The notes under the pieces: model-generated
Databases searched by the model: none
What the model saw: only the letters and a program-made list of their open reading frames with translations
What the model was told of the DNA's origin: nothing
Source: Candidatus Saccharimonadia bacterium
GTDB taxonomy: Bacteria; Patescibacteriota; Saccharimonadia; UBA4664
Reading direction: 5' to 3'
Length of the DNA stretch: 64,000 bases
Assembly (NCBI GenBank): GCA_036488585.1
Contig: DASXHH010000024.1
Span: 85-64,084, forward strand
Translations under genes and position numbers: made by a program
Shown here: one piece after another, positions 1 through 31,181 of the stretch
How positions within the stretch are numbered: position 1 is the stretch's first letter
Layout: every line of letters starts with the position of its first letter

Positions 1-499
1 AAAGGGGGTGCATTTGGCGATTGGCGCGGTGCGTGAGTACAACCGGCAACACCAGGACGAGCTTGTGAAACTGAAAATTGCCGGCAAACATTACGCCGGA
101 CATAGCAAGGATTTATATTGGCAGGAGCAAATTTTGCCGGAGCTAGGGGGCGAGATTGAGTACGCGGGATTTATTCGTGGTGACGAGGAGAAACGGCGGT
201 TTTTGGCCAATGCCCGCGCGTTAATAATGCCGAGCACCTTTGCTGAGCCGTTTGGACTGGTAATGGCCGAAGCGCTGGCTTGTGGCACGCCGATAGTGGG
301 GCTGAACTCGGGAGCGGTGGCCGAAGTGGTGCGTGACGGCGAGACGGGATTGGTGGTGAAAGACGCGAGCGAGCTGGTGGGCGCACTGGGTCGAATAAGT
401 GAAATCGACCGCGGCCAATGCCGGGCCGATTTTGAGGGGCGTTTCACGCTCGAGCGGATGGTGCGTGAGCACGCCGAATTGTACAAAAGCTTAGTATAG
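1..499 (+). CDS. Glycosyltransferase family 1 (GT4-like), C-terminal fragment; 5' end lies outside the window
   Basis: ORF 8..499 is open to the window edge. Motif EPFGLVMAEALACGTPIV is typical of the GT1/GT4 C-terminal Rossmann domain. Confidence 0.6.
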   Translation, partial: KGVHLAIGAVREYNRQHQDELVKLKIAGKHYAGHSKDLYWQEQILPELGGEIEYAGFIRGDEEKRRFLANARALIMPSTFAEPFGLVMAEALACGTPIVGLNSGAVAEVVRDGETGLVVKDASELVGALGRISEIDRGQCRADFEGRFTLERMVREHAELYKSLV

Positions 500-1063: not shown

Positions 1064-1915
1064 TTACAAGATGACCAAATCGGTCTTGATGCGCGGATGA
1101 GACACGTAGTCTTCGAGCACAAAATTTTCCTCTCGGAAGTCATCGATATTCTTCACGTCGCCCACGATCTTGAGCTTGGGAAGCGGGAAGGGCTTGCGGC
1201 GCAGCTGTTCTTTGGCGGCGTCGATGTGGTTCTTGTAGAGGTGGGCGTTACCGGCGGCAATTATCAGTTCGCGGGGCTCGGCGTCCACCAGATGCGCCAC
1301 CATGTGCAGGAGCATGGCGTACTGGGCGATGTTAAACGGCGCGCCCAAAAATACGTCCCACGAGCGTTGGTACAGCTGGAGCCGTAATTTGCCTTTGGTA
1401 AGGTCGAACTGGAACATGGTGTGGCACGGTGGCAGGCGCATATCGCCGTAATCATTGGGGTTCCAGCGCTTGTCGCCAATCTCACCCGCATTCCAGGCAC
1501 TCACGATTATGCCCTTAGAATCGGGGTTGGTCTTGAGTTCATTGATAGCCCAAGCCAGTTGATCGAATTCGGGTTGTCCGTCAGGTCGCTTCCAATGCCG
1601 CCATTGGACGCCGTAGACCCGGCCAAGGTCGTTCGAGTCCTCGTGTAAAAATCCGTCCCAGTAGTGAATATTGTGTTCGTGCAGATATGTGACGTCCGAG
1701 CTGCCCGAAATAAACCACAATAGCTCGTGAAGCAGGATCTTAAACGGCATCTTCTTGGTGGTGAGCAACGGGAAGCCGTGCCGCATGTCGAACCGCACTT
1801 GGGTGCCAAACACCGACTTGAGGCTATGAATGCCTCGGCTGGGCTTACTCTTGCCGTTTTTAATGATATCGGCCATGAGGCCTAAATATTCGTATTCTGG
1901 ATGCCGTGTCGGCAT
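1064..1915 (-). CDS. thyA: Thymidylate synthase ThyA (start at the internal ATG preceded by GGAGAGGAGG)
   Basis: LPPCHTMFQF active-site Cys motif. RSWDVFLGAPFNIAQYAMLL carries the dUMP-discriminating Asn (PFNIA). SD GGAGG lies upstream of the ATG at 1913-1915. Confidence 0.9.
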   Translation of the reverse strand: MPTRHPEYEYLGLMADIIKNGKSKPSRGIHSLKSVFGTQVRFDMRHGFPLLTTKKMPFKILLHELLWFISGSSDVTYLHEHNIHYWDGFLHEDSNDLGRVYGVQWRHWKRPDGQPEFDQLAWAINELKTNPDSKGIIVSAWNAGEIGDKRWNPNDYGDMRLPPCHTMFQFDLTKGKLRLQLYQRSWDVFLGAPFNIAQYAMLLHMVAHLVDAEPRELIIAAGNAHLYKNHIDAAKEQLRRKPFPLPKLKIVGDVKNIDDFREENFVLEDYVSHPRIKTDLVIL

Positions 1916-2082
1916 AGTCCCCTCCTCTCCCCCTATATACATAGGCAGTATAACAAACCTGCCAAGTTGTTAATTTGTGATCTGTACTGAGGAGAGTGTG
2001 GTTGTGTTTGCGTTGGTTGCGCGAGCTTGATTCCACTTGCGTACATCCGCGGTCTGTTCCAGACGGCGGACGGTCTTGGCGG

Positions 2083-2178: not shown

Positions 2179-3072
2179 TTAGAGCTCGCTGGGGTCGTCC
2201 CAGTCGTCGGGGCTGATGTAGGCGAAGAACACCGGGACAGGCACGTCGGGCTTGCCGGCGGTCATGAGGAAGGGCCGGTTGAGCACGAGGGGCTCTGCGG
2301 TCGAGCCGAAGCACATCTCGTCCATGCCCATGGCCGAAGCTTCCTCGGCCCGGAAGCCCTTCTCGTTCATGGCCAGCTTGACCTGCATCTTGGCTTGTTG
2401 GATGATCCAGGCGCCCAGCGGTCCGGAGAGCCCGAGGTTGATGAGCCAGCTGACGTCGGGTTCGGTGTTCAGGTTCACCATCGGTACGTGGGCGCCGTTG
2501 TGCCCGGTGTAGCGGAAGCCCGGATTGTAGGTATGCAGGCCGCGGGCCAGGTGGGCTAGGTGGATCTGGTCCTTGGGCTCGTCGCACATGACGAACCGCA
2601 CGTCCAGCCCCTTCTTGGTGGATACCCGGACTACGGGGTTGGTGAACCACAAGGGCGGTTCGACCACGTCGCACCACTGGTCGCCCGAGAGCGCAAAGCC
2701 TTCGTAGGTCTGGTCTGCGCCGGTGATCGGTACGAGTTGGCCTGGGTTGACCCAGTGGTCGAGGATGTCGCTGACGCCGGCGACGCCGAAGTTGCGGCCG
2801 TTGTTGGGCCAGTCGTGGAGGTGGATGTCGAAGCCGTGCTCGGCCAGGAACCGGTTGATCTCCACGGCGGTTTCGGCGGCGATGCCCGAGACGTACTCGT
2901 CGTAGAAGGGCAGCGCCTGCAAGTAGTCGGGGAGCAAATTCACGAATCGGCTCTGCAGCCTGGAGCCGGGATGGGGTTGGGGTACCAACGTATAGTCCCC
3001 GGCGAACTTGTGGGCGGCGTAGAGCGCGGTCGCCAGTGTCATTGGGCTGAAGCCCATACTCTTACTACTCAT
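2179..3072 (-). CDS. Hypothetical protein (297 aa) with an HLHDW (HxHD) motif; function unknown
   Basis: Long ORF with a good SD (GGAGGAG) and its own terminator. No P-loop. I could not assign it to a family from the sequence. Confidence 0.55.
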   Translation of the reverse strand: MSSKSMGFSPMTLATALYAAHKFAGDYTLVPQPHPGSRLQSRFVNLLPDYLQALPFYDEYVSGIAAETAVEINRFLAEHGFDIHLHDWPNNGRNFGVAGVSDILDHWVNPGQLVPITGADQTYEGFALSGDQWCDVVEPPLWFTNPVVRVSTKKGLDVRFVMCDEPKDQIHLAHLARGLHTYNPGFRYTGHNGAHVPMVNLNTEPDVSWLINLGLSGPLGAWIIQQAKMQVKLAMNEKGFRAEEASAMGMDEMCFGSTAEPLVLNRPFLMTAGKPDVPVPVFFAYISPDDWDDPSEL

Positions 3073-3276
3073 CGATGCTCCTCCAAAGAGCGTCGTGGGT
3101 GATCAGATGGTAATAGTTTATACCATAAATGCGATGTCTAATCAAATTATAGATAGTGGGGATAGGTAAATTGGAGCAGGCGGCGTAGCCGGCGGAGTGG
3201 TCCTAGGCTAATTCCTGCATTTCAGTGCGGACGCTGAATGGGTCTGCTATTGTTAGGCTAATAAGCGGGACGGGGT

Positions 3277-4008
3277 ATGGAACATAAGGATTTCAGCGAT
3301 CTAAAGGCATTAATAATTAACTGTTCGATTACACACGACAAGACGAAATCGCACACGCAGAGGCTGCTCAATCGGGTGTCGGGTGTAATGGAGAAAGAGG
3401 GCGTGGAGGTGAGCCAGCTTTACATGTTGGAGCACAAGGTAGCTTTCGGGATGATCAAGGACGGGCGCGAAGAAGGCGTGGAGGACGAGTGGCCGGAAAT
3501 CCAGCGGCAGATTATGGCGGCGGACATTCTGGTGATCGGAACGCCCATTTGGCTGGGTGCTAAATCGAGCGTGGCGACGTTGGTGATCGAGCGGATGTAC
3601 GCGTATAGCGGCGACCGGAACGATAAGAGGCAATGGTTATATTACGGCAAGACCGGCGGGTGCGTGGTGACTGGTAACGAGGATGGGATTAAGGCTTGCG
3701 CGCGCGATATATTGTATTGCTTGCAGCACATCGGGTACATGATACCGCCGCAGGCGGATTGTGGCTGGATTGGCGAGGCTGGTCCCGGTCCGAGCTATGG
3801 TGACACTGAGTTTGAGGGCAAAAAGTTCGACCCGCCGGTGGGGTATGCGAATGATTTTACGAACCGGAATGCCACGTATATGGCGTGGAACCTGATGCAC
3901 ACGGCTCGGATGCTCAAGGACAACGGCGGGATTCCGGCAGTCGGCAACACGACCGAGGGCTGGGAGCACGTGACGAACGCCAAGCGGCAGAATCCGGAGT
4001 ACCGCTAG
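3277..4008 (+). CDS. Flavodoxin-like fold NAD(P)H-dependent FMN reductase / NAD(P)H:quinone oxidoreductase family protein
   Basis: N-terminal LKALIINCS ... ADILVIGTPIWLG pattern is typical of flavodoxin-like FMN reductases. Confidence 0.6.
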   Translation: MEHKDFSDLKALIINCSITHDKTKSHTQRLLNRVSGVMEKEGVEVSQLYMLEHKVAFGMIKDGREEGVEDEWPEIQRQIMAADILVIGTPIWLGAKSSVATLVIERMYAYSGDRNDKRQWLYYGKTGGCVVTGNEDGIKACARDILYCLQHIGYMIPPQADCGWIGEAGPGPSYGDTEFEGKKFDPPVGYANDFTNRNATYMAWNLMHTARMLKDNGGIPAVGNTTEGWEHVTNAKRQNPEYR

Positions 4009-4979
4009 ACCAGCCGACGGACGGTCTTGCCGGCTTGTTCGAGCATTTTGATGGCGTAGCCCGCACTGTGGTCTTCGCGGTAGACGACTTCGGCGATGGG
4101 CATGGCGGTGAACATGCGGGCGCAGGTGGGACATGGGAGCAGGTTGATGAAGACAGTGGTGCCGCGTAGGTCGAGGCCGGTAGAGACAGCTTTGGCTACG
4201 AGTTCGACCTCAGCGTGGTTAGTGTCGTAGTGGTTGAGGTCGTTCATGGGCGAGAAATTCAGTTCGCGGGTGGCGCCGTGGTGCCAGGCGTAGGTCTGAT
4301 ACGGAAGTACGCGGTTAAAGGCGATCTCTTTTAGGCGGTACTCACTCCCCTGCTTGAGCCCGAGTGCAACGCCGGTTTGGAATCCGTTGTCGAATGAATG
4401 AGTGGCAGCGAGGTTGGCTAGTTCAAGCATTTCGGCTTCGGAATACAGTCTTTCGTCAGATAGTTGTGGCAGTGCGGGTAACTCCGCTAAGTGCTCGAAG
4501 GCTTGGGCCTCGGCCTCGTCGGTGAAGGGCGAAACGTGATCGTAGGGAATGCGGCGGGTGGCTAAGGCGTAGTACGGCGGCTGAGTGTGAAAGAGATGCT
4601 TCCAGGAGCCGTTGACGAGTACGACCCGCTGGAGGTTGAGCTTCTCGAGAATAAATTTGAGGTCGCGCTGGAAATAGTTGAGGGTGGTGATGGTGTGCTT
4701 GGGTTTGGTGGCGTTGACCTTGGAGATGATAGGTCCGATGGCTTCGAGCTGGAGGGTCTTGAACTGGGGCTGGTCTTCGAGACCGAGGACGTAGGGCTCT
4801 TTGGCCAGGCCGAGGATGATGTTGGCCCTAGGTAGGTAAGTTTTGACGAGCTGCTTGAAGCGGGCTTGGCTAAGCTCGCGGGGGGCGGCGATGAAGATGG
4901 CGCTAAGATCGGTTAAGGGTTTCTTGGAGCCAAAAGCCAGATCGGTCCAATCATACTGCATCGGATTGCTCGCTGGCAT
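4005..4979 (-). CDS. Fusion protein: unknown N-terminal domain (~175 aa) plus a C-terminal cytidine/deoxycytidylate deaminase (CDA-fold, dCMP-deaminase-like) domain
   Basis: Zinc motifs HAEVELV and PCPTCARMF in the C-terminal half. Start may be M1 (4979) or M7 (4961). The 5' end overlaps the upstream HIT gene. Confidence 0.7.
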   Translation of the reverse strand: MPASNPMQYDWTDLAFGSKKPLTDLSAIFIAAPRELSQARFKQLVKTYLPRANIILGLAKEPYVLGLEDQPQFKTLQLEAIGPIISKVNATKPKHTITTLNYFQRDLKFILEKLNLQRVVLVNGSWKHLFHTQPPYYALATRRIPYDHVSPFTDEAEAQAFEHLAELPALPQLSDERLYSEAEMLELANLAATHSFDNGFQTGVALGLKQGSEYRLKEIAFNRVLPYQTYAWHHGATRELNFSPMNDLNHYDTNHAEVELVAKAVSTGLDLRGTTVFINLLPCPTCARMFTAMPIAEVVYREDHSAGYAIKMLEQAGKTVRRLV

Positions 4980-5493
4980 ATTTGGTTTCGTAGCGGGAGG
5001 AGAGATCGCGAATTTTCTTGGATTGGGTACGGAAAAGTTGGGCGTTTTCGAGCGGGGTGTACCTGAGCTTACGGTAGTTCCAGACGGACAGGTCGGGGCC
5101 GTCTGAGGGAATGCAGTGCATATGCAAGTGATCTTGGACGGTAGAGTTGACGGCCGCGCCGCCGTCTCGCACTACGTACTGAATGTCCTTGAGACCGTGG
5201 ACCTTACGGATGATTTTTTTAGCGATGTAGGTGAATTTTTGGACCGTGGCCCATTCGTCTGGTGTCAGCTCTTTGATGGATTTAACGTGGCGGCGCGGGA
5301 TGATCATGAGGTTGCCGTCGATGTAGGCAAAGAGCGGCACGGTGAGGACGACGCCGTTTTCCTCGTGCACGATGTATTTGTCGCGCAGGTCGCAGAAGAC
5401 GCATTTGCCCACCGTGGTCCAGATTTCGCCGTAGTAGCCGCCGGTGCGGGCGTCTCTATAATATTCCTGCTTTTGGCGTTCTTCGGGGCTCAA
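4951..5493 (-). CDS. HIT-family (histidine triad) nucleotide hydrolase/transferase with a ~30-aa N-terminal extension; probable TTG start 1 nt after the upstream stop
   Basis: HLHMHCIP histidine triad. AAGGAG lies 7 nt upstream of the TTG at 5491-5493. The ORF track's ATG at 5553 would overlap the upstream gene by 59 nt. Confidence 0.75.
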   Translation of the reverse strand: MSPEERQKQEYYRDARTGGYYGEIWTTVGKCVFCDLRDKYIVHEENGVVLTVPLFAYIDGNLMIIPRRHVKSIKELTPDEWATVQKFTYIAKKIIRKVHGLKDIQYVVRDGGAAVNSTVQDHLHMHCIPSDGPDLSVWNYRKLRYTPLENAQLFRTQSKKIRDLSSRYETKYASEQSDAV

Positions 5494-5494
5494 A

Positions 5495-6067
5495 TTAGCG
5501 CTCCTTGAGCGGATCTTTGCGCAGCTCCATGAAGTCCTTGAAGATGTCGCCAAGGTGGCCGCCGATGGCGCGCTGGACGATCTTGGTGGTGGAGATAGCG
5601 ATGGACTGGCGCTCGACCATTTTGACCTCCCCGCCGTAGTGGATGACGGTTTTGTACTCCTTGGAGTTTTTGTAGTCGCCAGTCCAGTCTTCTTGGACGG
5701 TCACGAACACGTCGGGCTTGAGCAGGCCGAGCGAGGGCGCACAGCTGGGCTCGGGCAGGATGGTGACAAAATCAACGCTTCTGAGGTAGGTGAGCATTTC
5801 GGCGCGGATTTTCTCGTCGAGGATAGGCTTATTGGGGCCTTTGACGCGGCGGATGGCCTCGTTGGAGCTGACGCCCGCTACTAGCACGTCGCCTTCGGCG
5901 CGAGCCTTCTCGAGGTAGCGGCACTGGCCGGCGTGAATGAGGTCCCAGGAACCAGCGGTGAACACCACTTTTTTGCTGCGAGCTTTGAGTTGCTCGTGTA
6001 GTTGCATGAGGTCACTTTGCGCGACTAAGCGCTTCTTCCAACTCTGCGCGACGGATGCGTCTGCCAT
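5495..6067 (-). CDS. Cytidylyltransferase-fold nucleotidyltransferase (TagD / ECT / RfaE-domain-II-like) with a variant HxGQ motif
   Basis: FTAGSWDLIHAGQ (HxGH-like, second His replaced by Gln) and a downstream ISTT motif characteristic of CTP-dependent cytidylyltransferases. Confidence 0.7.
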   Translation of the reverse strand: MADASVAQSWKKRLVAQSDLMQLHEQLKARSKKVVFTAGSWDLIHAGQCRYLEKARAEGDVLVAGVSSNEAIRRVKGPNKPILDEKIRAEMLTYLRSVDFVTILPEPSCAPSLGLLKPDVFVTVQEDWTGDYKNSKEYKTVIHYGGEVKMVERQSIAISTTKIVQRAIGGHLGDIFKDFMELRKDPLKER

Positions 6068-6094
6068 ACTCCACCTTCATATGCGTAACTTTAT

Positions 6095-7120
6095 CTATAA
6101 TACTGGTTTTGCTCCGGTGGGTGCAACGGGTGCTCCAGATTGGAGCAAGCCGCGGGCTTGGAGCAGGTCGCGGGTGCGGACGAAATGTTCGTTTTGGGGC
6201 AGGAATTCGTACGGGTTATGGCGCAGGAATTTATAGAAATCGTGGAATAGAAACAGGTTAATGAGCTCGTCGAGTAGGTTGAGGCGGCCGCGGATGATGG
6301 GGGCGCTGAAGGGCTTGGGGCCGCGTTTGTTATATCCCGCGACCAGGAAGTATTTTCGAACTTGGGCCTCGGTTTTGTACTTTGAGTCAACCAAGAGGAA
6401 GGCCAGGGTGCGGGCGATGTCGAAGACGGGGTGGCCGACGGCGGTCTTCTCGAAGTCCAGGATGCCGGAAATTTCGGGGCCGGCGGGGGTTTGGCGGAAC
6501 AGGATGTTCGAGCGGACAAAATCGAGATGCAGGATTTGCTGACGTGGAATCCGGCGGCAGAGATTGAGTAGCCCGGTGAAATGGGCGAATAGTTTGGGTT
6601 GGATGGTGAGCCCGAGCTTGGCCCCGACGGCGGCTTGGACTGCGGGATCATCGAAGTAGCGGACCATGTGAGCGGTGATTTCGAGGTAATCGATGGCGGC
6701 TTCGGGGAAATCTGATGGGGGCGTGAGGTCGGCGAGCTCGGCGTGGAGGTGGCTGAGGGCAGCGCCGAGGAGTTTGAGGTGACGCCGAGTGTAAGCTTCC
6801 CAGGGGATGGTGGCGCCGGGCAAGTAGGTGTAGAGCGCGGTGTAGCGCAGGTAATGATCGTTTTTGAGCTGGGTGATAGGTCCGAGTGTGCGGCGGGTGG
6901 GCAAGCCGTGAACAGCCAGCGTATCGGACACGAAGTTAGCGCGGCGGATGCGCTCGAGGATGCCCGGTTCGCGCTTGTACACGATGAGGTTCACCGGCTC
7001 GCCGCTGGTGGGTGTAATGCGGTACGAATGGTTGCGGTAACCGCTTTGGCGCTCGGCGACGGCGAGCGGTTCCAGTCCGTACTCGCGGGCGATCCTGGTG
7101 ATGAGCTCGGGGGTGGTCAT
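6095..7120 (-). CDS. Aminoglycoside phosphotransferase (APH) / choline-ethanolamine kinase-like fold small-molecule kinase
   Basis: HLDFVRSNILF (HxDxxxxN catalytic loop) and ILDFEKTAVGHPVFDIA (DFE/DFG-like motif). Confidence 0.7.
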   Translation of the reverse strand: MTTPELITRIAREYGLEPLAVAERQSGYRNHSYRITPTSGEPVNLIVYKREPGILERIRRANFVSDTLAVHGLPTRRTLGPITQLKNDHYLRYTALYTYLPGATIPWEAYTRRHLKLLGAALSHLHAELADLTPPSDFPEAAIDYLEITAHMVRYFDDPAVQAAVGAKLGLTIQPKLFAHFTGLLNLCRRIPRQQILHLDFVRSNILFRQTPAGPEISGILDFEKTAVGHPVFDIARTLAFLLVDSKYKTEAQVRKYFLVAGYNKRGPKPFSAPIIRGRLNLLDELINLFLFHDFYKFLRHNPYEFLPQNEHFVRTRDLLQARGLLQSGAPVAPTGAKPVL

Positions 7121-7140
7121 GCAGGGATTATATCTGATAG

Positions 7141-7407
7141 CTAACCGAATCGCTTGATGGCGCGAGCCTTGGCCTTGGCAGCTTCAACCCCACGGTCGCG
7201 GGGTGGGGCGGTGGTGACGAGCGCATCGATGAGGTGCCTGGCAGAATGCGAGAATTCGGCCACGGCCTGGTCGAAGGCCGGCTGGTTGACTGCTGATGGC
7301 TTGGTGAAGCCTGATAGCTTGCGAGCAAATTGCAGCGCGGCTTCGTGAATCTCAGCGTCGGTGGCGGGTGGGTCAAAATTGAATAATGGTTTAATATTTC
7401 GGCACAT
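7141..7407 (-). CDS. DUF2277-like small protein (starts MCRNIKPLFNF)
   Basis: Internal ATG at 7405-7407 preceded by AAGGAG. The MCRNI N-terminus is typical of DUF2277. The longer ORF-track start would overlap the rplA terminator. Confidence 0.55.
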   Translation of the reverse strand: MCRNIKPLFNFDPPATDAEIHEAALQFARKLSGFTKPSAVNQPAFDQAVAEFSHSARHLIDALVTTAPPRDRGVEAAKAKARAIKRFG

Positions 7408-7444
7408 AACAAAACTCCTTGATCTGTATTGTACAGACAAGGAG
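7408..7444 (-). terminator. Putative terminator after rplA: stem CTCCTTG/CAAGGAG with T-run. Its 3' arm doubles as the SD (AAGGAG) of the DUF2277 gene.
   Basis: Inverted repeat with 16-nt loop followed on minus by TTTTGTT, then the ATG. Confidence 0.45.
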
Positions 7445-7465
7445 CTTTGCTTGGTTTGTATTTGG

Positions 7466-8581
7466 TTATTTGCGGCCGGTGGAGATAGCCTGGATGGTAG
7501 CAGCGGCGTCAACTTTGATGCCGGGGCCCATCGAGGTGGTGGCGGAGAGCGCCCTCACGTAGGTGCCCTTGGCAGAGGCGGGCTTGGCCTTGAGCACTGC
7601 GCTCAGGAATGCGGTGGCGTTGGCACGCAGGTCTTCGGGCTTAAAGCTCGCTTTGCCGACCGCCTGGTGGACGATCGCGGACTTGTCGATGCGGAACTCA
7701 ACCTTACCGCCCTTGGCCTCTTTGACGGCCTTGGCGACATCGGGAGTGACGGTACCGCTCTTGGGGTTCGGCATGAGGCCGCGCGGTCCTAGGACCTTGG
7801 CGACGCGGCCGAGGGTGGCCATCTTGTCAGGAGTAGCTACGAGCATATCGAACTCGAGCTTGCCCTTCTCGATGTCGGCCAGCAGCTTGTCGGTGCCAAC
7901 TAGGTCGGCGCCGGCAGCTTTGGCATCCTCGGCAGCTTTGCCGTCTGCGAATACGGCTACACGGACGGTTTTGCCGGTGCCGTGCGGCAGGACTACGCTG
8001 GAGCGGACCATCTGGTCGGCCTGGCGCGGATCGACACCGAGGTTAATGTGAAGCTCCACGGTGGAGTCAAACTTGGTGGTAGCGGTCTTTTGGGCTAGGT
8101 CCAGAGCTTCATCGAGGGTGTAAGCCTTGCCTACTTCGATGAGCTCGGAAGCCTTACGGTATTTCTTACCGTGTTGGTGCAACGGGTTGGGTTGCTGGCG
8201 CTTGGCCTTGGGCGGAGCGTCAGCCTCAGCGGCGTCAGTTTCGGCGCGGTGCTCCTTGGCCTCCTGGCGGGACTCTTCGGCCTCTACCTCACGGACGGCT
8301 TTGGCGCTGCGCTTGCCGGCTTTAGCCGTGCCTTTGGGCTCCTCGCCCTTAGCGTCGGTGCCGGTGGCGGCGTCGGTGGGAGCGTCCGATTCACTTACGT
8401 GGTCTTCATTCTCGTCGGGGGTCGATTCCTTGGCGCCGGACCTTTCGAGGTTCTGGTCCTCGGCCACGGCTACCACGTCGTCGGTGAGGTCCACCTCGGG
8501 CGCAGTCTCCTGGATCTCGGTGATCTCATCATGAGTCTCTTCGGCGGCCATAATTTCTTCGCGGTTCTTTGATTCTGCCAT
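7466..8581 (-). CDS. rplA: 50S ribosomal protein L1 with a ~139-aa acidic low-complexity N-terminal extension
   Basis: C-terminal 232 aa align to L1 (VLPHGTGKTVRVAVF, GPRGLMPNPKSGTVT). ATG at 8579-8581 has GGAGG 12 nt upstream and overlaps the rplK stop (TAATG). Confidence 0.9.
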   Translation of the reverse strand: MAESKNREEIMAAEETHDEITEIQETAPEVDLTDDVVAVAEDQNLERSGAKESTPDENEDHVSESDAPTDAATGTDAKGEEPKGTAKAGKRSAKAVREVEAEESRQEAKEHRAETDAAEADAPPKAKRQQPNPLHQHGKKYRKASELIEVGKAYTLDEALDLAQKTATTKFDSTVELHINLGVDPRQADQMVRSSVVLPHGTGKTVRVAVFADGKAAEDAKAAGADLVGTDKLLADIEKGKLEFDMLVATPDKMATLGRVAKVLGPRGLMPNPKSGTVTPDVAKAVKEAKGGKVEFRIDKSAIVHQAVGKASFKPEDLRANATAFLSAVLKAKPASAKGTYVRALSATTSMGPGIKVDAAATIQAISTGRK

Positions 8582-19565: not shown

Positions 19566-22091
19566 TCAATGGAAGTCTGACATGTGGTCTAGGGTGGTAT
19601 CGAGGTCGATGCCAGGGCCGAGCACAGGCTGCCAGAGATCGCCGACTTGATGGAGGCGATCCGGCATAGTGCGGATGGTGAAGGCTTTGGGATTGAGCTG
19701 GAGATTTACCTCGTCCCATGCTAGCGGGGTGGATACGGTGGCGCCCGGCACCGGTCGAACACAATACGGCGCGGCCATGGTTTGGCCGGCCCGGTTTTGC
19801 AGGAAGTCGAGGTAGACTTTGTGCTCGCGCTTGTCGGGATTGCGCTCCACGCTAGTGATGTCGGGTAGGCGGTCGTGGATTAGGTTCATGAGGATTTGGG
19901 CAAACTGCTTGCTTTGCTCGTAGGTATACTTGGCGCCGAGCGGGATGCAGATATGGAGGCCAGTCTTGCCGCTGGTTTTAACACAGGCGGTAACGTTGAG
20001 CTCGCCTAGAAGGCGATGGGCTTCCTGGGCCACGGTGATTATGGCGTCGAAGCCGATGGTTTTGGCGTCGAGATCGAGCAGGCAGTAATCCGGGCGGTCG
20101 GGGTCCGTAAAGCGGGAATGCCACGGGTTGAGCTCAATGCAGCCGAGGTTGGCCATATAAAGCAGGGTATCGCGGTCGTCCGCGACCAACCAGTGAATGT
20201 CTTTATGGTTTGATTCGGAGTAGAGAGGGACTGTTTTGACCCAATCGGGATGTTTTTCGACATCTTTTTGGAAAAAGCTACCACCCTCAATGCCATTGGG
20301 ATGACGATTGAGAGACTCGGGGCGATCTTTGAGGTATGGCAAAATAGTGTCTGCAATATGATCGTAGTAAGCGATGAGGTCGCCTTTGGTGAGGTGGTCG
20401 GCCGGCCAAAATAGTTTGTCTAGATGTGTGAGCTTAACTCGAGATGCCGTTGCGGTGAGCTCACTCCCCATCGCTGGCTGCGAAGAACCCTTCTCTTCGG
20501 TGTTGCCCTCAACATTGAGAGAGCCGGCTGTGTCGGGTGAACCACCTTGCGCCACGCTAGAGCTGGGTACTTCGCGTACTGCGCTTTTGGCGGGCTTGTC
20601 GTCGCGCAGGCCCTGGAATATGGGTTGGCGGAGGTGGCCGTCGGCGGTCCACTCGGCAAAGCTGATTTCGGCCAGGAGCTGGGGTTCAACCCATTGCACG
20701 GGCGTGTTGGTGGGAAATGATTCCACAAAGGGTGAGCTGGATCGTTCGAGGGGTTTTAGCCGTTCAAGCACTTCACTGAGCGTTTGATCGGTGAAGCCGC
20801 CGCCGCAATGCCCGATGTAATGGAGTTGGCCGTGCGTATCGTAGAGGCCGAGTACGAGCGCGCCGAGGTTTTTGCGGCCACCACGGGGTTCGGTATAACC
20901 GCCGATAACGGCCTCTTGGCGGAGATGGGTTTTTATTTTAAGCCAATCATGGGAACGTTTGCCGGCGCGGTAGGGACTGGAAGCGGCTTTGGCCATGATG
21001 CCTTCGAGCTGTTGGTCTTGAGCTAGCTGGAAAAACCGTTTACCCTCCCCTACCACATGATCGCTGAGGCGGGTGTGTTTGAGGGGTGCTACTAGCTGGG
21101 CAAGCAACTCTTTGCGCCGAGTTAGCGGCAGGTCGCGGAGGTCGTGGCCGCCGGCAAACGGCAGGTCGAAGACATAGTAAACAAGATTGCCGACACCGGT
21201 TTGTTGGTAGTTTTGGAGCGCACTGAAGGTGGAGCGACCATGCTCGTCGATGACCACCATTTCGCCATCGAGAATACAATCTAGACGCAAATCGGCAAGT
21301 TCGTCGGCCACCGGTTGGTAGCGGCTAGTGTAATCTTGGTGGTTGCGGGTGAGCAGCTGTACACGGCCGTCTCGCAGATGGGCCATGATGCGGTAGCCGT
21401 CCCACTTGATTTCGTAGAGCCAGTCGGGATCGTTGGTGGGCTCGTCTGCAAGAGTGGCGAGCATAGGATCAAGCACGGCAGGCTGATCGGCTTTCGGTGC
21501 GTCCGAGAGATCAAGTTGCGGCACATCAAGCCACTGACCGGGCCCTTCGGCGATTTCGCCCATGGTACGGCCGGATAATACCGAACGGTCTTGGTGAGTG
21601 ACGTCAGTTTCGGAAGCGTGTTCATCTTTGTGCTTAATGAGTAGCCAGGAGTTTTCTTCATGGCCATGGGTTTTTACGAGCACCCAGCTACCTGCCAGTT
21701 TGTGGCCATGTAGGATGAACTTGAGCTCACCTTTGTCCAGCCCCGGTGACTGCGGCTCCTCTTCCCATGTACCCTCATCCCAGACCATAACGGTACCGGC
21801 GCCATAGTTGCCCTCTGGAATGGTACCTTCGAAGTCCCGGTACTCTAACGGATGGTCTTCGACCATCATGGCTAGGCGTTTGTCTGCTGGGTTGGGCGAT
21901 GGCCCCTTAGGTACGGCCCAGCTTTTGAGTACGCCACCGAGTTCGAGCCGGAAGTCATAATGCAGGCGGCTGGCTTCGTGTTTTTGGATTACGAAGCGCA
22001 ACGGGCTTCCGACAGCGGATGCATTGGAAGCACCGGAAGGCTCGGGTGTGCTATCGAATCGGCGTTTGCGCTGGTATTCGGAGAGGCCCAT
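19566..22091 (-). CDS. ligD: Multidomain ATP-dependent DNA ligase LigD (3'-phosphoesterase, ligase, polymerase/primase domains; Pseudomonas-type order)
   Basis: PE domain (RFVIQKHEASRLHYDFRLE), ligase KxDG motif (EIKWDGYR), C-terminal LigD Pol domain (LLDLD ... KTSGKTGLHICIPL). 841 aa. Confidence 0.9.
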   Translation of the reverse strand: MGLSEYQRKRRFDSTPEPSGASNASAVGSPLRFVIQKHEASRLHYDFRLELGGVLKSWAVPKGPSPNPADKRLAMMVEDHPLEYRDFEGTIPEGNYGAGTVMVWDEGTWEEEPQSPGLDKGELKFILHGHKLAGSWVLVKTHGHEENSWLLIKHKDEHASETDVTHQDRSVLSGRTMGEIAEGPGQWLDVPQLDLSDAPKADQPAVLDPMLATLADEPTNDPDWLYEIKWDGYRIMAHLRDGRVQLLTRNHQDYTSRYQPVADELADLRLDCILDGEMVVIDEHGRSTFSALQNYQQTGVGNLVYYVFDLPFAGGHDLRDLPLTRRKELLAQLVAPLKHTRLSDHVVGEGKRFFQLAQDQQLEGIMAKAASSPYRAGKRSHDWLKIKTHLRQEAVIGGYTEPRGGRKNLGALVLGLYDTHGQLHYIGHCGGGFTDQTLSEVLERLKPLERSSSPFVESFPTNTPVQWVEPQLLAEISFAEWTADGHLRQPIFQGLRDDKPAKSAVREVPSSSVAQGGSPDTAGSLNVEGNTEEKGSSQPAMGSELTATASRVKLTHLDKLFWPADHLTKGDLIAYYDHIADTILPYLKDRPESLNRHPNGIEGGSFFQKDVEKHPDWVKTVPLYSESNHKDIHWLVADDRDTLLYMANLGCIELNPWHSRFTDPDRPDYCLLDLDAKTIGFDAIITVAQEAHRLLGELNVTACVKTSGKTGLHICIPLGAKYTYEQSKQFAQILMNLIHDRLPDITSVERNPDKREHKVYLDFLQNRAGQTMAAPYCVRPVPGATVSTPLAWDEVNLQLNPKAFTIRTMPDRLHQVGDLWQPVLGPGIDLDTTLDHMSDFH

Positions 22092-22092
22092 G

Positions 22093-22881
22093 CTACTTGC
22101 CGGTGGTCTTGGCCTTTTCCTTCTCGAGTGATTCCTTGAGCATAGCCATCAAGTCCTTGGCGGGCGTGGCAGAGGGGGCTTTGCCCTCGGCCTTGGGTGC
22201 CTTGCCCTTCAATTTGGCCTCGATCATGGCTTCTAGCTCTTCGGTATAGCTGTCTTTGTAGTCCTCGGGAACAAAGGGACCGGTGAGCTGGTCGATGAGT
22301 TTGAGGGCCATGTCGATCTCTTTGCCGGTGGCAATTTTAGCGTCGGGTAGATCGAGCTGGCGGGGTTCACGCAAATCCGAGGGAAAGCGTAGCTGGTTGA
22401 GTACCAAGGCGCGGCCCACTGGTTTAATGGCGGCCAGATGCTCGCGTTGGCGTAGCACAAACTTAGCCACCGCGATCTTGTGACTGCGCTTCAGCGCCTC
22501 ACGCAGCAGGGCGTAGGGCTTCTCGGAATTCTTGTCGGGCTCGAGATAATAGGGCTTCTCGTAATAACGCACGTCGAGCTCTTGCTCGTCCGTGAACTCC
22601 TCGATGTCGATGGTCTTAGTTTTGCGGGAATTAACCTTGTCGAAGTCTGCGTCCGTAAGCACCACGTAATCGCCATCCTGATACTCGTAACCTTTTACGA
22701 TGTCATCGTAGGGCACTTCTTGGCCGTCTTTGCGGCAGATTTTGGCATAACGAATCGGCGACAAGTCGTCTTTGTGCAGCATGTTTAACTCAATGCCACC
22801 CCGACTCTCGCTGCCACTGTAGAGCCGTACGGGAATGTTGATAAGGCCAAAACTAAGTGATCCAGTCCAAATTGCTCTCAT
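22093..22881 (-). CDS. ku: Ku protein (NHEJ DNA end-binding)
   Basis: MRAIWTGSLSFGLINIPVRLYSG is the canonical bacterial Ku N-terminus. It sits 1 nt downstream of ligD. Confidence 0.9.
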   Translation of the reverse strand: MRAIWTGSLSFGLINIPVRLYSGSESRGGIELNMLHKDDLSPIRYAKICRKDGQEVPYDDIVKGYEYQDGDYVVLTDADFDKVNSRKTKTIDIEEFTDEQELDVRYYEKPYYLEPDKNSEKPYALLREALKRSHKIAVAKFVLRQREHLAAIKPVGRALVLNQLRFPSDLREPRQLDLPDAKIATGKEIDMALKLIDQLTGPFVPEDYKDSYTEELEAMIEAKLKGKAPKAEGKAPSATPAKDLMAMLKESLEKEKAKTTGK

Positions 22882-25217: not shown

Positions 25218-26237
25218 TTAAGGGGTGAATACTCTCAGGTATTGCACTTCTTCGTAACCGGCTCCAGCCGGCCAGCTGGCGTGGTTCGGGTCATCCGCGT
25301 TCGGTCCGCTGATGCCCCAGTTGATGTACTGGCTGTTGTGGGCTAGAACGCTTGCGGGAACCGAGGCGTAGAGCTTACCGTTGATGTATACGTTGGCTCC
25401 TGCATAGTTGGCCTTGAACTCCATATCTACGACGTTCCAGCCAGGTACGGCATCGTTGGCCGGAGTGCTGGATAGTTTAGGGTTGTCCCAGCTAGCGGTA
25501 CCAATGGACTGGGGTGAACTGCTTGATCCATAGTGATACGTGACGTAGCTTTGTCCGTACTGCGTCTCGATGGCGTCAAGTTCGCCGGTAGCTGGCCAGT
25601 TAGTGCCGTCCGTCCAGTAACTAGCCCAGTCGATGAGCGTACTGCCACTTCCAGGTAACCAGACCTTCGATTCAACCACCGTACCGTTAGTGGATATCAA
25701 GCTAGCCGAGCGGATATGCCCACAGTCGGTGTTACTACCAGCCGAGGCGGCGGTACCCCGCGTTGATAATTTGACCGCATCGTTGGCTGCATCGTACGTG
25801 GTGTTGCTAGTGGGGCACGAACCCCCGCCTTCTTGGGTGTTGTTGGCATTTTGAGCCCAGTTGCCGGAAGTCATCTGGCTGGCGGTGTATGACTGCGAGA
25901 GCACGCTATAACTACTCAAAGCCGAGGCGTATGGTAGCGAGGACGAGCCGCCGCCCGTAGGGGTAGGTGTGGGTGTAGAGATTGAGGTTGGGGTAGGCGT
26001 GGAGCTAGATCCCGTTCCAAACTTGACCGCCTTACCGCCTATGGCCGTGCTGTTTGTCACAAGGGAAGCATTTCCGGCGATGGTACCAGATTGGGCGAGC
26101 ATACTAATTGCGGCGCCTGTGGCAGCGAAGGTGGCCAATACCAATACTGCCCCCGCTACCACAAAGACGATGATAAAAGGGGTCGATCTCACTCGCTTTG
26201 GTTTTAGAAGTTCGCGTACGCGTATTTTATATGCCAC
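25218..26237 (-). CDS. Membrane-anchored glycoside hydrolase family 16-like (beta-glucanase/laminarinase-type) protein
   Basis: N-terminal TM anchor, ST/P-rich linker, catalytic ExDxxE motif (GELDAIE). Confidence 0.55.
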   Translation of the reverse strand: MAYKIRVRELLKPKRVRSTPFIIVFVVAGAVLVLATFAATGAAISMLAQSGTIAGNASLVTNSTAIGGKAVKFGTGSSSTPTPTSISTPTPTPTGGGSSSLPYASALSSYSVLSQSYTASQMTSGNWAQNANNTQEGGGSCPTSNTTYDAANDAVKLSTRGTAASAGSNTDCGHIRSASLISTNGTVVESKVWLPGSGSTLIDWASYWTDGTNWPATGELDAIETQYGQSYVTYHYGSSSSPQSIGTASWDNPKLSSTPANDAVPGWNVVDMEFKANYAGANVYINGKLYASVPASVLAHNSQYINWGISGPNADDPNHASWPAGAGYEEVQYLRVFTP

Positions 26238-26326
26238 CTTTTAAGGATGTTCTGTGAACAAATTATAATGCCTGTGGTTATTCAAGCACAGGGTAACACA
26301 TTGGTGTATGAATCTTATAGTAAAGG

Positions 26327-26836: not shown

Positions 26837-26956
26837 GGAGGGGATGCAAAACAATAGTTAAGCCGACAAGTGCCAGCCGCCTGGAGATTTAATACGTGAT
26901 TCAATCTTCGGGTAGTTGTCTGCGCAAACGTGCACGGTGGGATTGGAATTGGGCGG

Positions 26957-26992
26957 AAAACAGCCGACTGCATAGCGCTAAATCGGCCGTTT
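26957..26992 (-). terminator. Putative terminator after the 27070..29016 gene: 10-bp stem AAACAGCCGA/TCGGCCGTTT (1 mismatch), large loop, short T-run on minus
   Basis: Inverted repeat seen directly. The U-tract is weak. Confidence 0.35.
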
Positions 26993-27069
26993 GAGGAGAA
27001 ATAACGCTTATGGACGCCTGGCTAGGGTTATTGGGACATTATCCGAGTACCGGTGACAGCAAAAACGCT

Positions 27070-29534: not shown

Positions 29535-29611
29535 TGGAAACCCTATAGAATATATCGAAAATTATACTATTTATGTTCGTAAAATGCTTGTGATTCGACG
29601 GGCGAAAATGA

Positions 29612-30388: not shown

Positions 30389-30402
30389 GAGGTAATTATA
30401 TG

Positions 30403-31180: not shown

Positions 31181-31181
31181 A

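What the first reader, a model, noticed from the sequence alone, without database searches (positions are those of the whole stretch)
4005..7407. Tightly coupled operon: DUF2277, APH-fold kinase, HxGQ cytidylyltransferase, HIT protein, novel N-domain::CDA-deaminase fusion
Five consecutive minus-strand genes with 1-nt spacing or overlaps (HIT TTG start 1 nt after the cytidylyltransferase stop with a perfect AAGGAG; the deaminase start overlaps the HIT stop). This implies co-translation and a shared pathway. The pieces are: (i) a small-molecule kinase of the APH/choline-ethanolamine-kinase fold; (ii) a CTP-type nucleotidyltransferase with ISTT motif but an unusual HxGQ instead of HxGH; (iii) a HIT nucleotide hydrolase/transferase with an extra N-terminal segment; (iv) a CDA-superfamily zinc deaminase (HAE ... 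PCxxC) fused C-terminally to an uncharacterised ~175-aa domain. A kinase plus cytidylyltransferase is the logic of Kennedy-type CDP-alcohol activation (CDP-choline/ethanolamine) or nucleotide-sugar formation. Adding a HIT enzyme and a cytosine-nucleotide deaminase suggests the product is, or is made via, a cytidine-nucleotide conjugate that is further edited. I do not recognise this combination as a described pathway.
Basis: partly seen in the sequence, partly recalled or inferred. Interest (0 to 1): 0.75.

Follow-up and report, generated by a model that had tools for sequence, protein, structure and literature searches.

The report
Conserved kinase–nucleotidyltransferase–HIT unit feeding thymidylate synthesis
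In this Saccharibacteria genome, and across other ultrasmall Patescibacteria, an unstudied kinase, nucleotidyltransferase and HIT enzyme are locked (sometimes fused) to dCMP deaminase and thymidylate synthase, pointing to an undescribed step in how these bacteria make the DNA base thymine.

Summary
The genes are real, but only two of the four junctions are tight (CT-HIT 1 nt, HIT-deaminase overlap). The other two gaps are 20 and 27 nt. Tight spacing is common in this genome and proves little alone.

Independent evidence shows the genes work together. In 29 non-identical loci from Saccharibacteria and other Patescibacteria, this subtype of cytidylyltransferase-like enzyme (CT) is always followed by a HIT or Nudix domain. 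A dCMP deaminase and then thymidylate synthase follow wherever the contig reaches. Natural fusions exist: kinase-CT-CT-HIT, kinase-CT, CT-HIT, CT-CT-HIT and ATP-cone-CT-Nudix-dCMP deaminase. One genome has NrdD-NrdG-kinase-CT-CT-HIT-deaminase-TS in a row. A cultured Saccharibacterium without the unit has a dCTP deaminase (Dcd) beside Tmk, DHFR and ThyA.

DUF2277, the 297-aa protein and the FMN reductase are not conserved parts. The "novel" N-domain of the deaminase is probably a degenerate CT-fold domain.

Best reading (about 0.4): the kinase makes X-phosphate, CT makes (d)CDP-X from a pyrimidine (d)NTP, and HIT or Nudix releases the monophosphate for deaminase and ThyA. This would be an alternative to the Dcd/dUTPase or dCTPase routes. 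X and the nucleotide are unknown. I found no description of this unit in the literature.

The parts
6095..7120 (-). Kin: APH/eukaryotic-like-kinase-fold small-molecule kinase (341 aa). Proposed to make X-phosphate.
   Evidence: - PF01636: E 1.2e-19, 71.4 bits.
- HLDFVRSN and DFE catalytic motifs.
- AF2 model: pLDDT 92.4.
- Shorter orthologues sit beside or are fused to CT in other Patescibacteria (HMM E 1e-22 to 1e-26).
5495..6067 (-). CT: HxGH-superfamily nucleotidyltransferase (190 aa; HAGQ, RQSxxISTT, invariant EDW). It is the most conserved protein of the unit.
   Evidence: - PF01467: 44.1 bits.
- TIGR02199 rfaE_dom_II: 115.9 bits, below the 181.5 cutoff.
- Best PDB sequence hit: human ethanolamine-phosphate cytidylyltransferase, 3.2e-16.
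- 71-80% identical among Saccharibacteria.
- Only 28 clusters at E<=1e-30 among 1.84e9 representatives. Of the top hits I examined, most are module fusions.
4951..5493 (-). HIT: histidine-triad nucleotidyl hydrolase/transferase (180 aa, TTG start) with a conserved ~25-aa N-terminal extension.
   Evidence: - PF01230: 42 bits.
- HLHMHCI motif.
- Closest solved relatives: Ap4A phosphorylase 3ano 4e-8, and Fhit.
- Fused to CT in P0242, P0249, P0252, P0263 and P0264.
- Fused to Nudix in L005.
4473..4961 (-). N-terminal domain of the deaminase protein (~165 aa). Probably a degenerate CT-fold (Rossmann-like) domain without HxGH or ISTT.
   Evidence: - No Pfam or PDB sequence hit.
- Model pLDDT mostly above 90.
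- hhalign against the CT profile: score 28, P 0.0013, 133 collinear columns. Controls score 11-20.
- Many invariant polar residues.
- Absent from the deaminases of other Patescibacteria and of L031/L034.
4005..4472 (-). C-terminal dCMP-deaminase-type zinc deaminase domain (HAE ... PCPTC).
   Evidence: - PF00383: 33.1 bits.
- H249, E251, C277 and C280 are invariant.
- Immediately followed by ThyA in L002, L004, L006, L007 and most other loci.
1064..1942 (-). ThyA thymidylate synthase (292 aa). The conserved last gene of the unit, displaced here by an insertion.
   Evidence: - PF00303: E 7.9e-97.
- The catalytic LPPCH and the dUMP-specifying PFNIA Asn are read from the sequence.
- Adjacent to or overlapping the deaminase in 24 of 29 module loci.
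7141..7407 (-). DUF2277 (88 aa). A neighbour, not a conserved member.
   Evidence: - PF10041: E 2.5e-34.
- Found only in the window and L003 among all loci.
2179..4008 (.). Window-specific insertion between the deaminase and ThyA: FMN reductase (3277-4008, +) and a 297-aa protein of unknown family (2179-3072, -).
   Evidence: - No homologue in any of the related loci.
- The 297-aa protein has no significant Pfam, NCBIfam or PDB hit.
- A terminator-like hairpin lies at 2118-2091 on the minus strand.

Best explanation
The locus is the Saccharibacterial version of a conserved Patescibacterial thymidylate-supply module. Its parts are a kinase, a nucleotidyltransferase (CT), a HIT (or Nudix) enzyme, dCMP deaminase and thymidylate synthase.

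Proposed mechanism (all steps inferred):
1. The APH-fold kinase phosphorylates a small alcohol X. X is most likely an amino-alcohol or sugar.
2. CT condenses X-P with a pyrimidine (deoxy)nucleoside triphosphate. This is most likely dCTP, the product of an NTP-reducing ribonucleotide reductase. The products are dCDP-X and PPi.
3. The HIT enzyme (Nudix in one lineage) cleaves the pyrophosphate bond. This releases dCMP and regenerates X-P.
4. The zinc deaminase converts dCMP to dUMP.
5. ThyA, with DHFR or SHMT, converts dUMP to dTMP.

The net effect is dCTP to dUMP without free dUTP. That is the job done elsewhere by Dcd plus Dut, or by a dCTPase plus dCMP deaminase.

The N-terminal domain of the deaminase is a degenerate CT-fold domain. 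It may pair with the dimer-forming CT and tether the deaminase to it.

Shown: the folds, the catalytic motifs, the conserved order and the fusions. Inferred: the substrates, the direction of flux, the identity of X and the tethering role.
For: 1. Conserved order. In 29 non-identical loci, the module-type CT (HMM score >=230) is always followed by HIT (25 loci) or Nudix (4 loci). dCMP deaminase follows in 25 of 25 loci with enough flank. TS follows in 24. The kinase is present in 21 of 23 HIT-type loci with upstream flank. Seventy HldE-like CT loci (score <=190) lack the unit.
2. Independent fusions, all in the same N-to-C order:
   - Kin-CT-CT-HIT (P0249, P0252)
   - Kin-CT and CT-HIT (L021)
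   - CT-CT-HIT (P0242)
   - CT-HIT (P0263, P0264)
   - HIT-Nudix (L005, L030)
   - ATP-cone-CT-Nudix-dCMP deaminase (P0259 and 5 further clusters)
3. Pathway-ordered neighbours:
   - L018: NrdD-NrdG-Kin-CT-CT-HIT-Deam-TS
   - L012...Deam-TS-Tmk
   - L022...TS-SHMT...FolD
   - L008, L009, L106: TS followed by dNK, TK and Tmk
   - Saccharibacteria: dNMP kinase and DHFR upstream
4. The ATP-cone is the dATP/ATP sensor of ribonucleotide reductases. It is fused to CT-Nudix-Deam.
5. HIT and Nudix both cleave NMP-pyrophosphate-X bonds. They substitute for each other after CT. The HIT is nearest to the Ap4A-phosphorylase/Fhit branch, whose substrates have phosphate-ester leaving groups.
6. In-situ displacement. 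Southlakia epibionticum has Tmk-Dcd-DHFR-ThyA. Its annotation table has no PF01636, no PF00383 and only one unrelated small PF01467 protein (PMC10633639 supplement).
7. The closest solved CT relative is ethanolamine-phosphate cytidylyltransferase. An enzyme of that type (T. brucei ECT) accepts dCTP, and dCDP-ethanolamine and dCDP-choline occur in nature (PMC2784872, PMC10505902).
8. The kinase's nearest structural neighbours phosphorylate small amino-alcohols or sugars.
Against: - No substrate was tested or can be predicted. The nucleotide could be CTP, dUTP or ATP.
- A three-enzyme cycle is a roundabout way to do what a single dCTPase or Nudix does. The Nudix domain resembles MutT/NudG-type NTP pyrophosphatases. 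It might therefore hydrolyse dCTP directly and leave CT with another role.
- The ATP-cone/Nudix lineage has no kinase nearby. L019/L020 lacks one too.
- Patescibacteria may obtain dCMP directly from salvaged DNA. That would make a dCTP-to-dCMP route less necessary.
- The Dcd complementarity rests on one genome.
- A GT-B glycosyltransferase recurs next to the unit in two lineages. This hints at an NDP-sugar role.
Confidence: 0.4

Rival explanations
1. The kinase and CT activate a small molecule (sugar-1-P, glycerol-P, or phospho-ethanolamine/choline) as NDP-X for envelope or glycoconjugate synthesis, perhaps used by the neighbouring GT-B glycosyltransferase. HIT or Nudix proofreads or recycles NDP-X. 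The deaminase and ThyA only recycle the released cytidine nucleotide into the thymidylate pool.
For: - Kinase plus nucleotidyltransferase is the classical activation pair.
- CT is closest to HldE domain II, ECT and TagD.
- A conserved GT4 flanks ThyA in all Saccharibacterial loci. A GlgA-like GT overlaps the start of the fusion gene in L012, L044 and L021.
- NahK, an anomeric sugar kinase, is the second-best structural match of the kinase.
Against: - The two GT groups are barely similar (28% over 124 aa).
- The GT is absent from L017, L018, L019, L022 and the ATP-cone lineage.
- No CDP-alcohol phosphotransferase, LicD or TagF-type transferase appeared among the annotated neighbours.
- The invariant partners are the deaminase and TS, not a transferase.
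- Fusion of CT to an ATP-cone and a dCMP deaminase is hard to explain for an envelope pathway.
Confidence: 0.2
2. The unit acts on dUTP rather than dCTP. CT plus HIT or Nudix would be a dUTPase analogue. It converts dUTP, made by NTP-reducing RNR, to dUMP for ThyA and keeps uracil out of DNA. The deaminase supplies a parallel dCMP-derived stream.
For: - The same context evidence applies as for the main model.
- NrdD/NrdG sit next to the unit in L018.
- The displaced enzyme in S. epibionticum belongs to the dUTPase-like Dcd family.
- Nudix and HIT both yield NMP.
Against: - The CT domain is fused to a dCMP deaminase (P0259). The invariant order CT, HIT, Deam, TS suggests the deaminase acts on the product of HIT or Nudix.
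- Characterised relatives of this CT use CTP or ATP, not UTP.
Confidence: 0.12
3. The unit makes and degrades a regulatory or cofactor-like nucleotide conjugate. Examples would be an allosteric effector of the deaminase or TS, or a dinucleoside polyphosphate. It would not carry bulk flux.
For: - The HIT is nearest to Ap4A phosphorylase and Fhit.
- The ATP-cone fusion shows the unit is wired to nucleotide-pool sensing.
- CT is unusually conserved.
Against: - A synthase, a hydrolase and a target enzyme fused in one polypeptide is more typical of sequential metabolism.
- The need for a small-molecule kinase is unexplained.
- No precedent is known to me.
Confidence: 0.08
4. The genes are functionally unrelated housekeeping genes. 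They stay together only because of the strong synteny and gene packing of reduced Saccharibacterial genomes.
For: Unrelated genes in this window are equally tightly packed.
Against: - There are several distinct fusion architectures that join kinase, CT, HIT, Nudix and deaminase domains.
- The order is conserved in lineages with different flanks: dprA-topA, secE-nusG-rplK, or nrdDG.
- The kinase is retained in the cluster after rearrangement in L005.
Confidence: 0.03

Closest known systems
Dcd (dCTP deaminase) plus Dut, or bifunctional Dcd-Dut: the usual bacterial route from dCTP to dUMP
   Same: It has the same proposed net function, pyrimidine dNTP to dUMP for ThyA. It also has the same genomic niche. 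In S. epibionticum, Dcd sits between Tmk and DHFR/ThyA.
   Different: There is no homology. Dcd and Dut are dUTPase-fold trimers acting at the triphosphate level. Here there is a kinase, an HxGH nucleotidyltransferase, a HIT or Nudix enzyme and a zinc dCMP deaminase.
Phage T4 / Gram-positive / eukaryotic route: dCTPase (gp56, DCTPP1, NudG-type Nudix) plus dCMP deaminase plus thymidylate synthase
   Different: The conserved nucleotidyltransferase and kinase have no counterpart. The deaminase scores far below the ComEB equivalog cutoff (24.9 versus 219 bits). In this window it also carries an extra N-domain.
Kennedy pathway enzymes (choline/ethanolamine kinase plus CCT/ECT)
   Same: - The kinase has the APH/choline-kinase fold.
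- The CT is of the same HxGH family.
- The best solved sequence match is human ECT.
- Other Patescibacteria have a tandem CT-CT like ECT.
- A characterised ECT (T. brucei) accepts dCTP (PMC2784872).
   Different: No CDP-alcohol phosphotransferase partner was seen. The partners are HIT, Nudix, deaminase and TS. The context is deoxynucleotide metabolism, not lipids.
HldE/HldC (RfaE domain II), heptose-1-phosphate adenylyltransferase. This is the name given to these proteins by automatic annotation.
   Same: It is the best NCBIfam model (TIGR02199, E 1.3e-33). The KGxxRP, VD and STT motif layout is shared.
   Different: - The score of 115.9 is below the 181.5 cutoff.
- There is no PfkB kinase partner in any of 29 module loci, versus 25 of 70 HldE-like loci.
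- Family-specific EDW and RQS motifs are present.
- HldE proper appears only at E about 1e-25 in the representative search.
NadM-Nudix (NMN adenylyltransferase fused to ADP-ribose pyrophosphatase)
   Same: An HxGH nucleotidyltransferase fused to a Nudix hydrolase, both acting on NDP-X compounds of one pathway. The Nudix domains give weak hits to this family.
   Different: The CT subfamily is different. There is no NAD-related context. Here the fusion continues into a dCMP deaminase and is preceded by an ATP-cone.

Membership tests
APH / eukaryotic-like kinase fold small-molecule kinases (PF01636) | Pfam score above the gathering cutoff; catalytic HxDxxxxN loop and DFE/DFG metal-binding motif; bilobal kinase fold | tested here: met
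Homoserine kinase type II (ThrB2) | NCBIfam equivalog score above the cutoff | tested here: not met
   PRK05231 scores 40.4 bits versus a cutoff of 271. TIGR00938 scores 17.5 versus 255.9.
HldE domain II / HldC heptose-1-P adenylyltransferase | TIGR02199 score >= 181.5 | tested here: not met
   115.9 bits.
HldE domain II / HldC heptose-1-P adenylyltransferase | Fused to or next to a PfkB heptose-7-P kinase (and GmhA/GmhB) | tested here: not met
   0 of 29 module loci have a PfkB domain nearby, versus 25 of 70 HldE-like loci.
HxGH cytidylyltransferase superfamily (PF01467) | Pfam score above cutoff; HxGH and (R)xxxxSTT motifs | tested here: met
   44.1 bits versus 21. The second His is Gln (HAGQ) in most Saccharibacteria, but it is HPGH in L003 and HxGH in other lineages. 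RQSxxISTT is present.
Kennedy-type CDP-alcohol pathway | A CDP-alcohol phosphotransferase (or LicD-type transferase) that consumes the CDP-alcohol | tested here: not met
   None appeared among the annotated neighbours of the loci whose gene tables I read or in the parts of the window I annotated. The rest of each genome was not searchable.
Kennedy-type CDP-alcohol pathway | CTP plus phosphocholine or phosphoethanolamine as substrates | not testable with these tools
   This needs enzyme assays.
LicA/LicC choline decoration | LicC is a GlmU-like NTP_transferase-fold enzyme | tested here: not met
   The CT is PF01467 (HxGH fold), with no NTP_transferase hit.
HIT superfamily | HxHxHxx histidine triad; Pfam HIT score above cutoff | tested here: met
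   HLHMHCI. 42 bits versus 21.5. L003 has HLHFQCI, a GalT-like third position.
Ap4A phosphorylase / ATP adenylyltransferase branch of HIT | NCBIfam NF052622 score above cutoff; phosphorolytic activity | tested here: not met
   46.3 bits versus a cutoff of 290. It is the nearest branch only. The activity is not testable here.
dCMP deaminase (ComEB / T4 Cd type) | CDA fold with HAE and PCxxC zinc site | tested here: met
dCMP deaminase (ComEB / T4 Cd type) | Equivalog-level sequence score (TIGR02571 >= 219) | tested here: not met
   24.9 bits. This is a divergent branch.
dCMP deaminase (ComEB / T4 Cd type) | Works with thymidylate synthase (genomic coupling) | tested here: met
   ThyA is adjacent or overlapping in 24 of 29 loci.
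Anti-phage dCTP deaminase (NF041025) | Equivalog score >= 400; kinase-like N-domain of that family | tested here: not met
   22.3 bits. The setting is a housekeeping one, next to ribosomal protein genes.

The most novel reading that the evidence does not exclude
Patescibacteria make their thymidylate precursor through a previously unknown nucleotide-conjugate shuttle. A dedicated kinase supplies a small phospho-alcohol. A cytidylyltransferase loads the dCMP moiety of dCTP onto it, giving a dCDP-X intermediate. A HIT or Nudix enzyme then unloads dCMP directly to a tethered deaminase and ThyA. This would be the first physiological pathway role for a deoxy-CDP-alcohol. It would also be a third route from dCTP to dUMP, alongside Dcd/Dut and dCTPase/dCMP deaminase.
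Probability: 0.3. Interest if true: 0.85.

Novelty: new variant of a known kind. Interest (0 to 1): 0.72.

Why it matters
Patescibacteria (CPR) are a very large and mostly uncultured part of bacterial diversity. They lack de novo nucleotide synthesis, so how they balance their dNTP pools is an open question.

- **A core, unexplained function.** Here three enzymes of unknown substrate are hard-wired into thymidylate synthesis. They are as conserved as ThyA itself and sit next to ribosomal protein genes.
- **A possible new route.** If the proposed shuttle is right, it adds a new route to dUMP. It would also give a function to deoxy-CDP-alcohols, which have been known for decades without a role.
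- **Annotation errors.** These proteins are currently named RfaE/heptose adenylyltransferase, RdoA Ser/Thr kinase or homoserine kinase across thousands of MAGs. Those names are not supported.
- **An easy experimental entry point.** The natural fusion proteins (Kin-CT-CT-HIT and ATP-cone-CT-Nudix-deaminase) are single polypeptides that can be tested directly.

Tried and rejected
- **Kennedy or LicA/LicC reading.** Rejected as membership. No CDP-alcohol transferase partner was seen and LicC has a different fold.
- **ADP-heptose (HldE) reading.** Rejected. The score is below the cutoff and there is no PfkB partner.
- **Sequence searches of solved structures.** The kinase alone gave nothing. Its family profile gave only weak APH hits (E >= 0.009). 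The N-domain and the 297-aa protein gave nothing significant.
- **First hhalign of the N-domain against CT1 and CT2 (-M first).** It gave probability 1.7%. A rerun with a broader CT profile and controls gave a modest, collinear best hit. I treat this as suggestive only.
- **tblastn of the HIT protein against phage records.** Only generic HIT hits.
- **Viral contigs scan with the CT profile.** Only HldE-like relatives, with a maximum HMM score of 131, and no module.
- **Hypermodified-DNA idea** (T4-like dNMP kinase, TS homologue and GT together). Set aside. ThyA keeps the dUMP-specifying Asn and is accompanied by DHFR or SHMT, as expected for a true methylase.
- **GT as a core member.** Not supported. 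The two GT groups are barely similar and the GT is absent from several lineages. GlgA-HldC adjacency in unrelated low-GC genomes (L042, L060, L087) looks like separate synteny.
- **Literature searches** for the combination found nothing.
- **MAG taxon labels** are unreliable. One module protein is labelled Clostridia and one deaminase Magnetospirillaceae.

Full report
**1. What is in the window**

The window comes from a Saccharibacterium (TM7, Patescibacteria). Every relative of the deaminase protein found in the genome collection is labelled Saccharibacteria or Saccharimonadales, or is an unnamed MAG.

On the minus strand, downstream of secE-nusG-rplK-rplA, lie these genes:
- DUF2277 (7141-7407)
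- an APH-fold kinase, Kin (6095-7120)
- a CTP_transf_like nucleotidyltransferase, CT (5495-6067)
- a HIT protein (4951-5493, TTG start preceded by AAGGAG)
- a two-domain protein ending in a CDA-type zinc deaminase, Deam (4005-4961)

The gaps between them are 20 nt, 27 nt, 1 nt and an 11-nt overlap. The tight-coupling claim therefore holds for CT-HIT-Deam only.

Tight spacing is ordinary in this genome. A TPR protein, DNA pol III delta', a pseudouridine synthase and TrkA (38448-41862) are also 1 nt apart or overlapping.

A very stable hairpin followed by U-rich sequence separates rplA from DUF2277 (dG -26.3 kcal/mol, z -7.35). Its 3' arm contains the DUF2277 Shine-Dalgarno sequence.

**2.

In seven related Saccharibacterial loci the order is Kin-CT-HIT-Deam-ThyA. 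Four-nucleotide overlaps occur between HIT, Deam and ThyA.

In the window, ThyA (1064-1942) is separated from Deam by an insertion. The insertion holds an FMN reductase and a 297-aa protein. Neither has a homologue in any related locus.

DUF2277 occurs only here and in L003.

Genes that recur around the unit in Saccharibacteria:
- a T4-gp1-like dNMP kinase
- DHFR
- SHMT
- a Tmk/ThyX-like fusion
- a nucleoside deoxyribosyltransferase-like protein
- a GT4 glycosyltransferase

**3. Evidence that the genes work together**

*Representative search.* I searched CT against 1.84 billion representative proteins. Only 28 clusters reached E<=1e-30. True HldE appears only at about 1e-25.

*Fusions.* Many of the best hits are multidomain proteins:
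- Kin-CT-CT-HIT (744 and 730 aa)
- CT-CT-HIT (543 aa)
- CT-HIT (340 and 347 aa)
- Kin-CT (468 aa)
- tandem CT-CT (365-412 aa)
- ATP-cone-CT-Nudix-dCMP deaminase (558-570 aa, several clusters)
- ATP-cone-CT-Nudix (399 aa)

In L005 the Saccharibacterial HIT is itself fused to a Nudix domain.

*Contexts of these proteins.*

| Locus | Gene order |
|---|---|
| L018 | NrdD-NrdG-Kin-CT-CT-HIT-Deam-TS |
| L017 | CT-CT-HIT-Deam-TS, with Kin on the other strand |
| L012 | GT-[Kin-CT-CT-HIT]-Deam-TS-Tmk |
| L021 | [Kin-CT][CT-HIT]-Deam-TS |
| L022 | Kin-CT-[CT-HIT]-Deam-TS-SHMT...FolD |
| L008, L009, L015, L106 | [ATP-cone-CT-Nudix-Deam]-TS, then dNK/TK or Tmk (L008, L009, L106) |

In L015, L016 and L106 the fusion gene sits directly after secE-nusG-rplK, as the unit does in the window.

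*Wider scan.* I scanned metagenome contigs with a CT alignment, then ran an HMM scan of 106 loci. The CT scores were bimodal.
- Module-type CT (score >=230) occurs in 29 non-identical loci.
- HIT follows in 25 of them and Nudix in 4.
- Deam follows in 25 of 25 loci with enough downstream sequence, and TS in 24.
- Kin is present in 21 of 23 HIT-type loci with upstream flank.
- Seventy lower-scoring CT loci lack the unit. Twenty-five of these sit next to a PfkB kinase, as real HldE does.
- Viral contigs hold no module-type CT.

**4. What the parts are**

*CT.* It is an HxGH-superfamily enzyme. Its motifs are KGxx(K/R)P, VDxV, an invariant (E/D)xW and RQSxxxS(T/S)(T/S). It scores below the RfaE-domain-II cutoff. 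Its best solved sequence match is human ethanolamine-phosphate cytidylyltransferase. HxGQ is a tolerated variant.

*HIT.* It has the canonical triad. It is nearest to the Ap4A-phosphorylase/Fhit branch, whose substrates are NMP-pyrophosphate-X compounds.

*Deam, N-domain (~165 aa).*
- It has no Pfam or PDB sequence match.
- A profile-profile comparison ranks CT first (score 28, P 0.0013, 133 collinear columns). Nine control profiles score 11-20.
- It lacks HxGH and STT.
- Other Patescibacteria have two CT domains and a short deaminase. This Saccharibacterial clade has one CT plus this extra domain on the deaminase.
- I therefore read it as a degenerate CT-fold domain.
- Enzymes of this family work as dimers or internal pseudo-dimers (established for TagD, CCT and ECT). 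It may therefore tether the deaminase to CT. This is inference.
- L031 and L034 show that some Saccharibacteria-like genomes do without it.

*ThyA.* It keeps the catalytic Cys and the dUMP-specifying Asn, and is accompanied by DHFR in relatives. It is a true thymidylate synthase.

**5. Mechanism**

CT, HIT and Nudix all make or break the pyrophosphate bond of an NDP-X compound. The kinase fits as the supplier of X-P.

The domain and gene order is always Kin, CT, HIT or Nudix, Deam, TS. In L018 the order is preceded by the NTP-reducing ribonucleotide reductase NrdD/NrdG. Elsewhere it is followed by Tmk.

One lineage adds the ATP-cone, the ATP/dATP sensor of ribonucleotide reductases.

The cultured Saccharibacterium Southlakia epibionticum lacks the unit. 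It has a dCTP deaminase between Tmk and DHFR/ThyA (PMC10633639 supplementary tables).

Together these observations suggest that the unit does what Dcd does elsewhere. It would move a pyrimidine deoxynucleotide from the triphosphate level to dUMP:

dCTP + X-P → dCDP-X + PPi (CT); dCDP-X → dCMP + X-P (HIT or Nudix); dCMP → dUMP (Deam); dUMP → dTMP (ThyA).

Enzymes of the ECT type accept dCTP, and dCDP-ethanolamine and dCDP-choline exist in nature (PMC2784872, PMC10505902).

I put this at about 0.4. The main weaknesses are:
- No substrate is known.
- The Nudix domain might hydrolyse dCTP directly.
- The ATP-cone lineage has no nearby kinase.
- The Dcd complementarity is a single case.

Rivals:
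- NDP-X made for envelope synthesis, with nucleotide recycling (0.2). This is prompted by recurring but non-orthologous GT-B neighbours.
- A dUTP-directed version (0.12).
- A regulatory conjugate (0.08).
- Mere synteny (0.03), which the fusions contradict.

**6. Comparison with known systems and novelty**

The unit works like Dcd/Dut or like T4's dCTPase-Cd-Td trio. It shares only the deaminase and TS with the latter. It borrows the Kennedy-pathway enzyme types but not their partners or context. It is not HldE.

Searches of the held literature found no description of this combination.

I class it as a new variant of a known kind. It is a thymidylate-supply pathway with an undescribed three-enzyme front end. 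It is widely conserved in Patescibacteria and currently mis-annotated.

Noticed in passing
window 7410-7451 (-), between rplA and DUF2277: There is a near-perfect 20-bp hairpin (one bulge, 3-nt loop) followed by UUUUGUU. Its dG is -26.3 kcal/mol and z is -7.35 against shuffles. The 3' arm contains the AAGGAG Shine-Dalgarno of DUF2277. It is terminator-like or a translational attenuator. The consensus terminator scan missed it.
   Followed up: partly
window 2179-3072 (-) and 3277-4008 (+): A 297-aa protein has no family, PDB or locus homologue. An NADPH-dependent FMN reductase lies next to it. Together they form a window-specific insertion between the deaminase and ThyA. L003 and L027 carry different insertions at the same place, so this junction is an insertion hotspot. 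A strong terminator-like hairpin follows the 297-aa gene at 2118-2091 (-).
   Followed up: partly
window 8-499 (+); L001-L007, L026, L031-L035: A GT4 glycosyltransferase (~390 aa, 52-61% identical across full-length Saccharibacterial copies) flanks ThyA in every Saccharibacterial locus. It is usually convergent with ThyA. In L005 it overlaps the kinase gene on the same strand. Its relation to the unit is unresolved.
   Followed up: partly
L012 6785-8008, L044 3603-4805, L021 1-1263; L042, L060, L087: A GlgA-like (Glyco_transf_5) glycosyltransferase overlaps the start of the Kin-CT... gene in one Patescibacterial lineage. In unrelated low-GC genomes, GlgA is followed by a standalone HldC-like CT, and in L042 and L087 it is also preceded by Tmk.
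   Followed up: partly
L008-L023, L044, L106 (TS genes): Outside Saccharibacteria the thymidylate synthase of the unit is a 475-502-aa protein. It is fused to MtrA-like and pterin-binding (DUF4346) domains. This suggests an unusual C1 carrier or cofactor handling. Saccharibacteria instead have a plain ThyA plus DHFR.
   Followed up: no
L003 6893-8004: L003 is the one Saccharibacterial orthologue set with canonical HPGH in CT. It is also the only one whose HIT motif is HLHFQ, a GalT-like Gln at the third position. This may be a co-variation between the two enzymes, but it is a single case.
   Followed up: no
L031 7101-7514, L034 2756-3265: Two Saccharibacteria-like loci (CT 74% identical to the window's) carry a short deaminase without the N-terminal domain. 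L031's is 137 aa and L034's is 169 aa by its longest ORF. The N-domain is therefore clade-specific and dispensable.
   Followed up: partly
window 7466-8581 (-): Ribosomal protein L1 carries a ~150-residue acidic, low-complexity N-terminal extension rich in E, D, A and K. In tblastn, the relatives other than L003 match only from about residue 85-125 onwards.
   Followed up: no
window 26000-38200: A low-GC stretch (0.47-0.51 versus about 0.57 elsewhere) holds a 648-aa ORF (27070-29016, -) with no Pfam hit and two HAD hydrolases. It is followed by a giant 2043-aa ORF (32021-38152, +) with no Pfam hit. This may be horizontally acquired or a surface-protein region.
   Followed up: no
window 19566-22881 (-): A complete three-domain LigD (phosphoesterase, ligase, primase-polymerase; 841 aa) lies next to Ku. 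This is a full NHEJ pair in a reduced genome.
   Followed up: no
L106 13724-15019: A thymidylate kinase fused to a DeoC (deoxyribose-phosphate aldolase) domain lies downstream of the ATP-cone-CT-Nudix-deaminase gene and TS.
   Followed up: no
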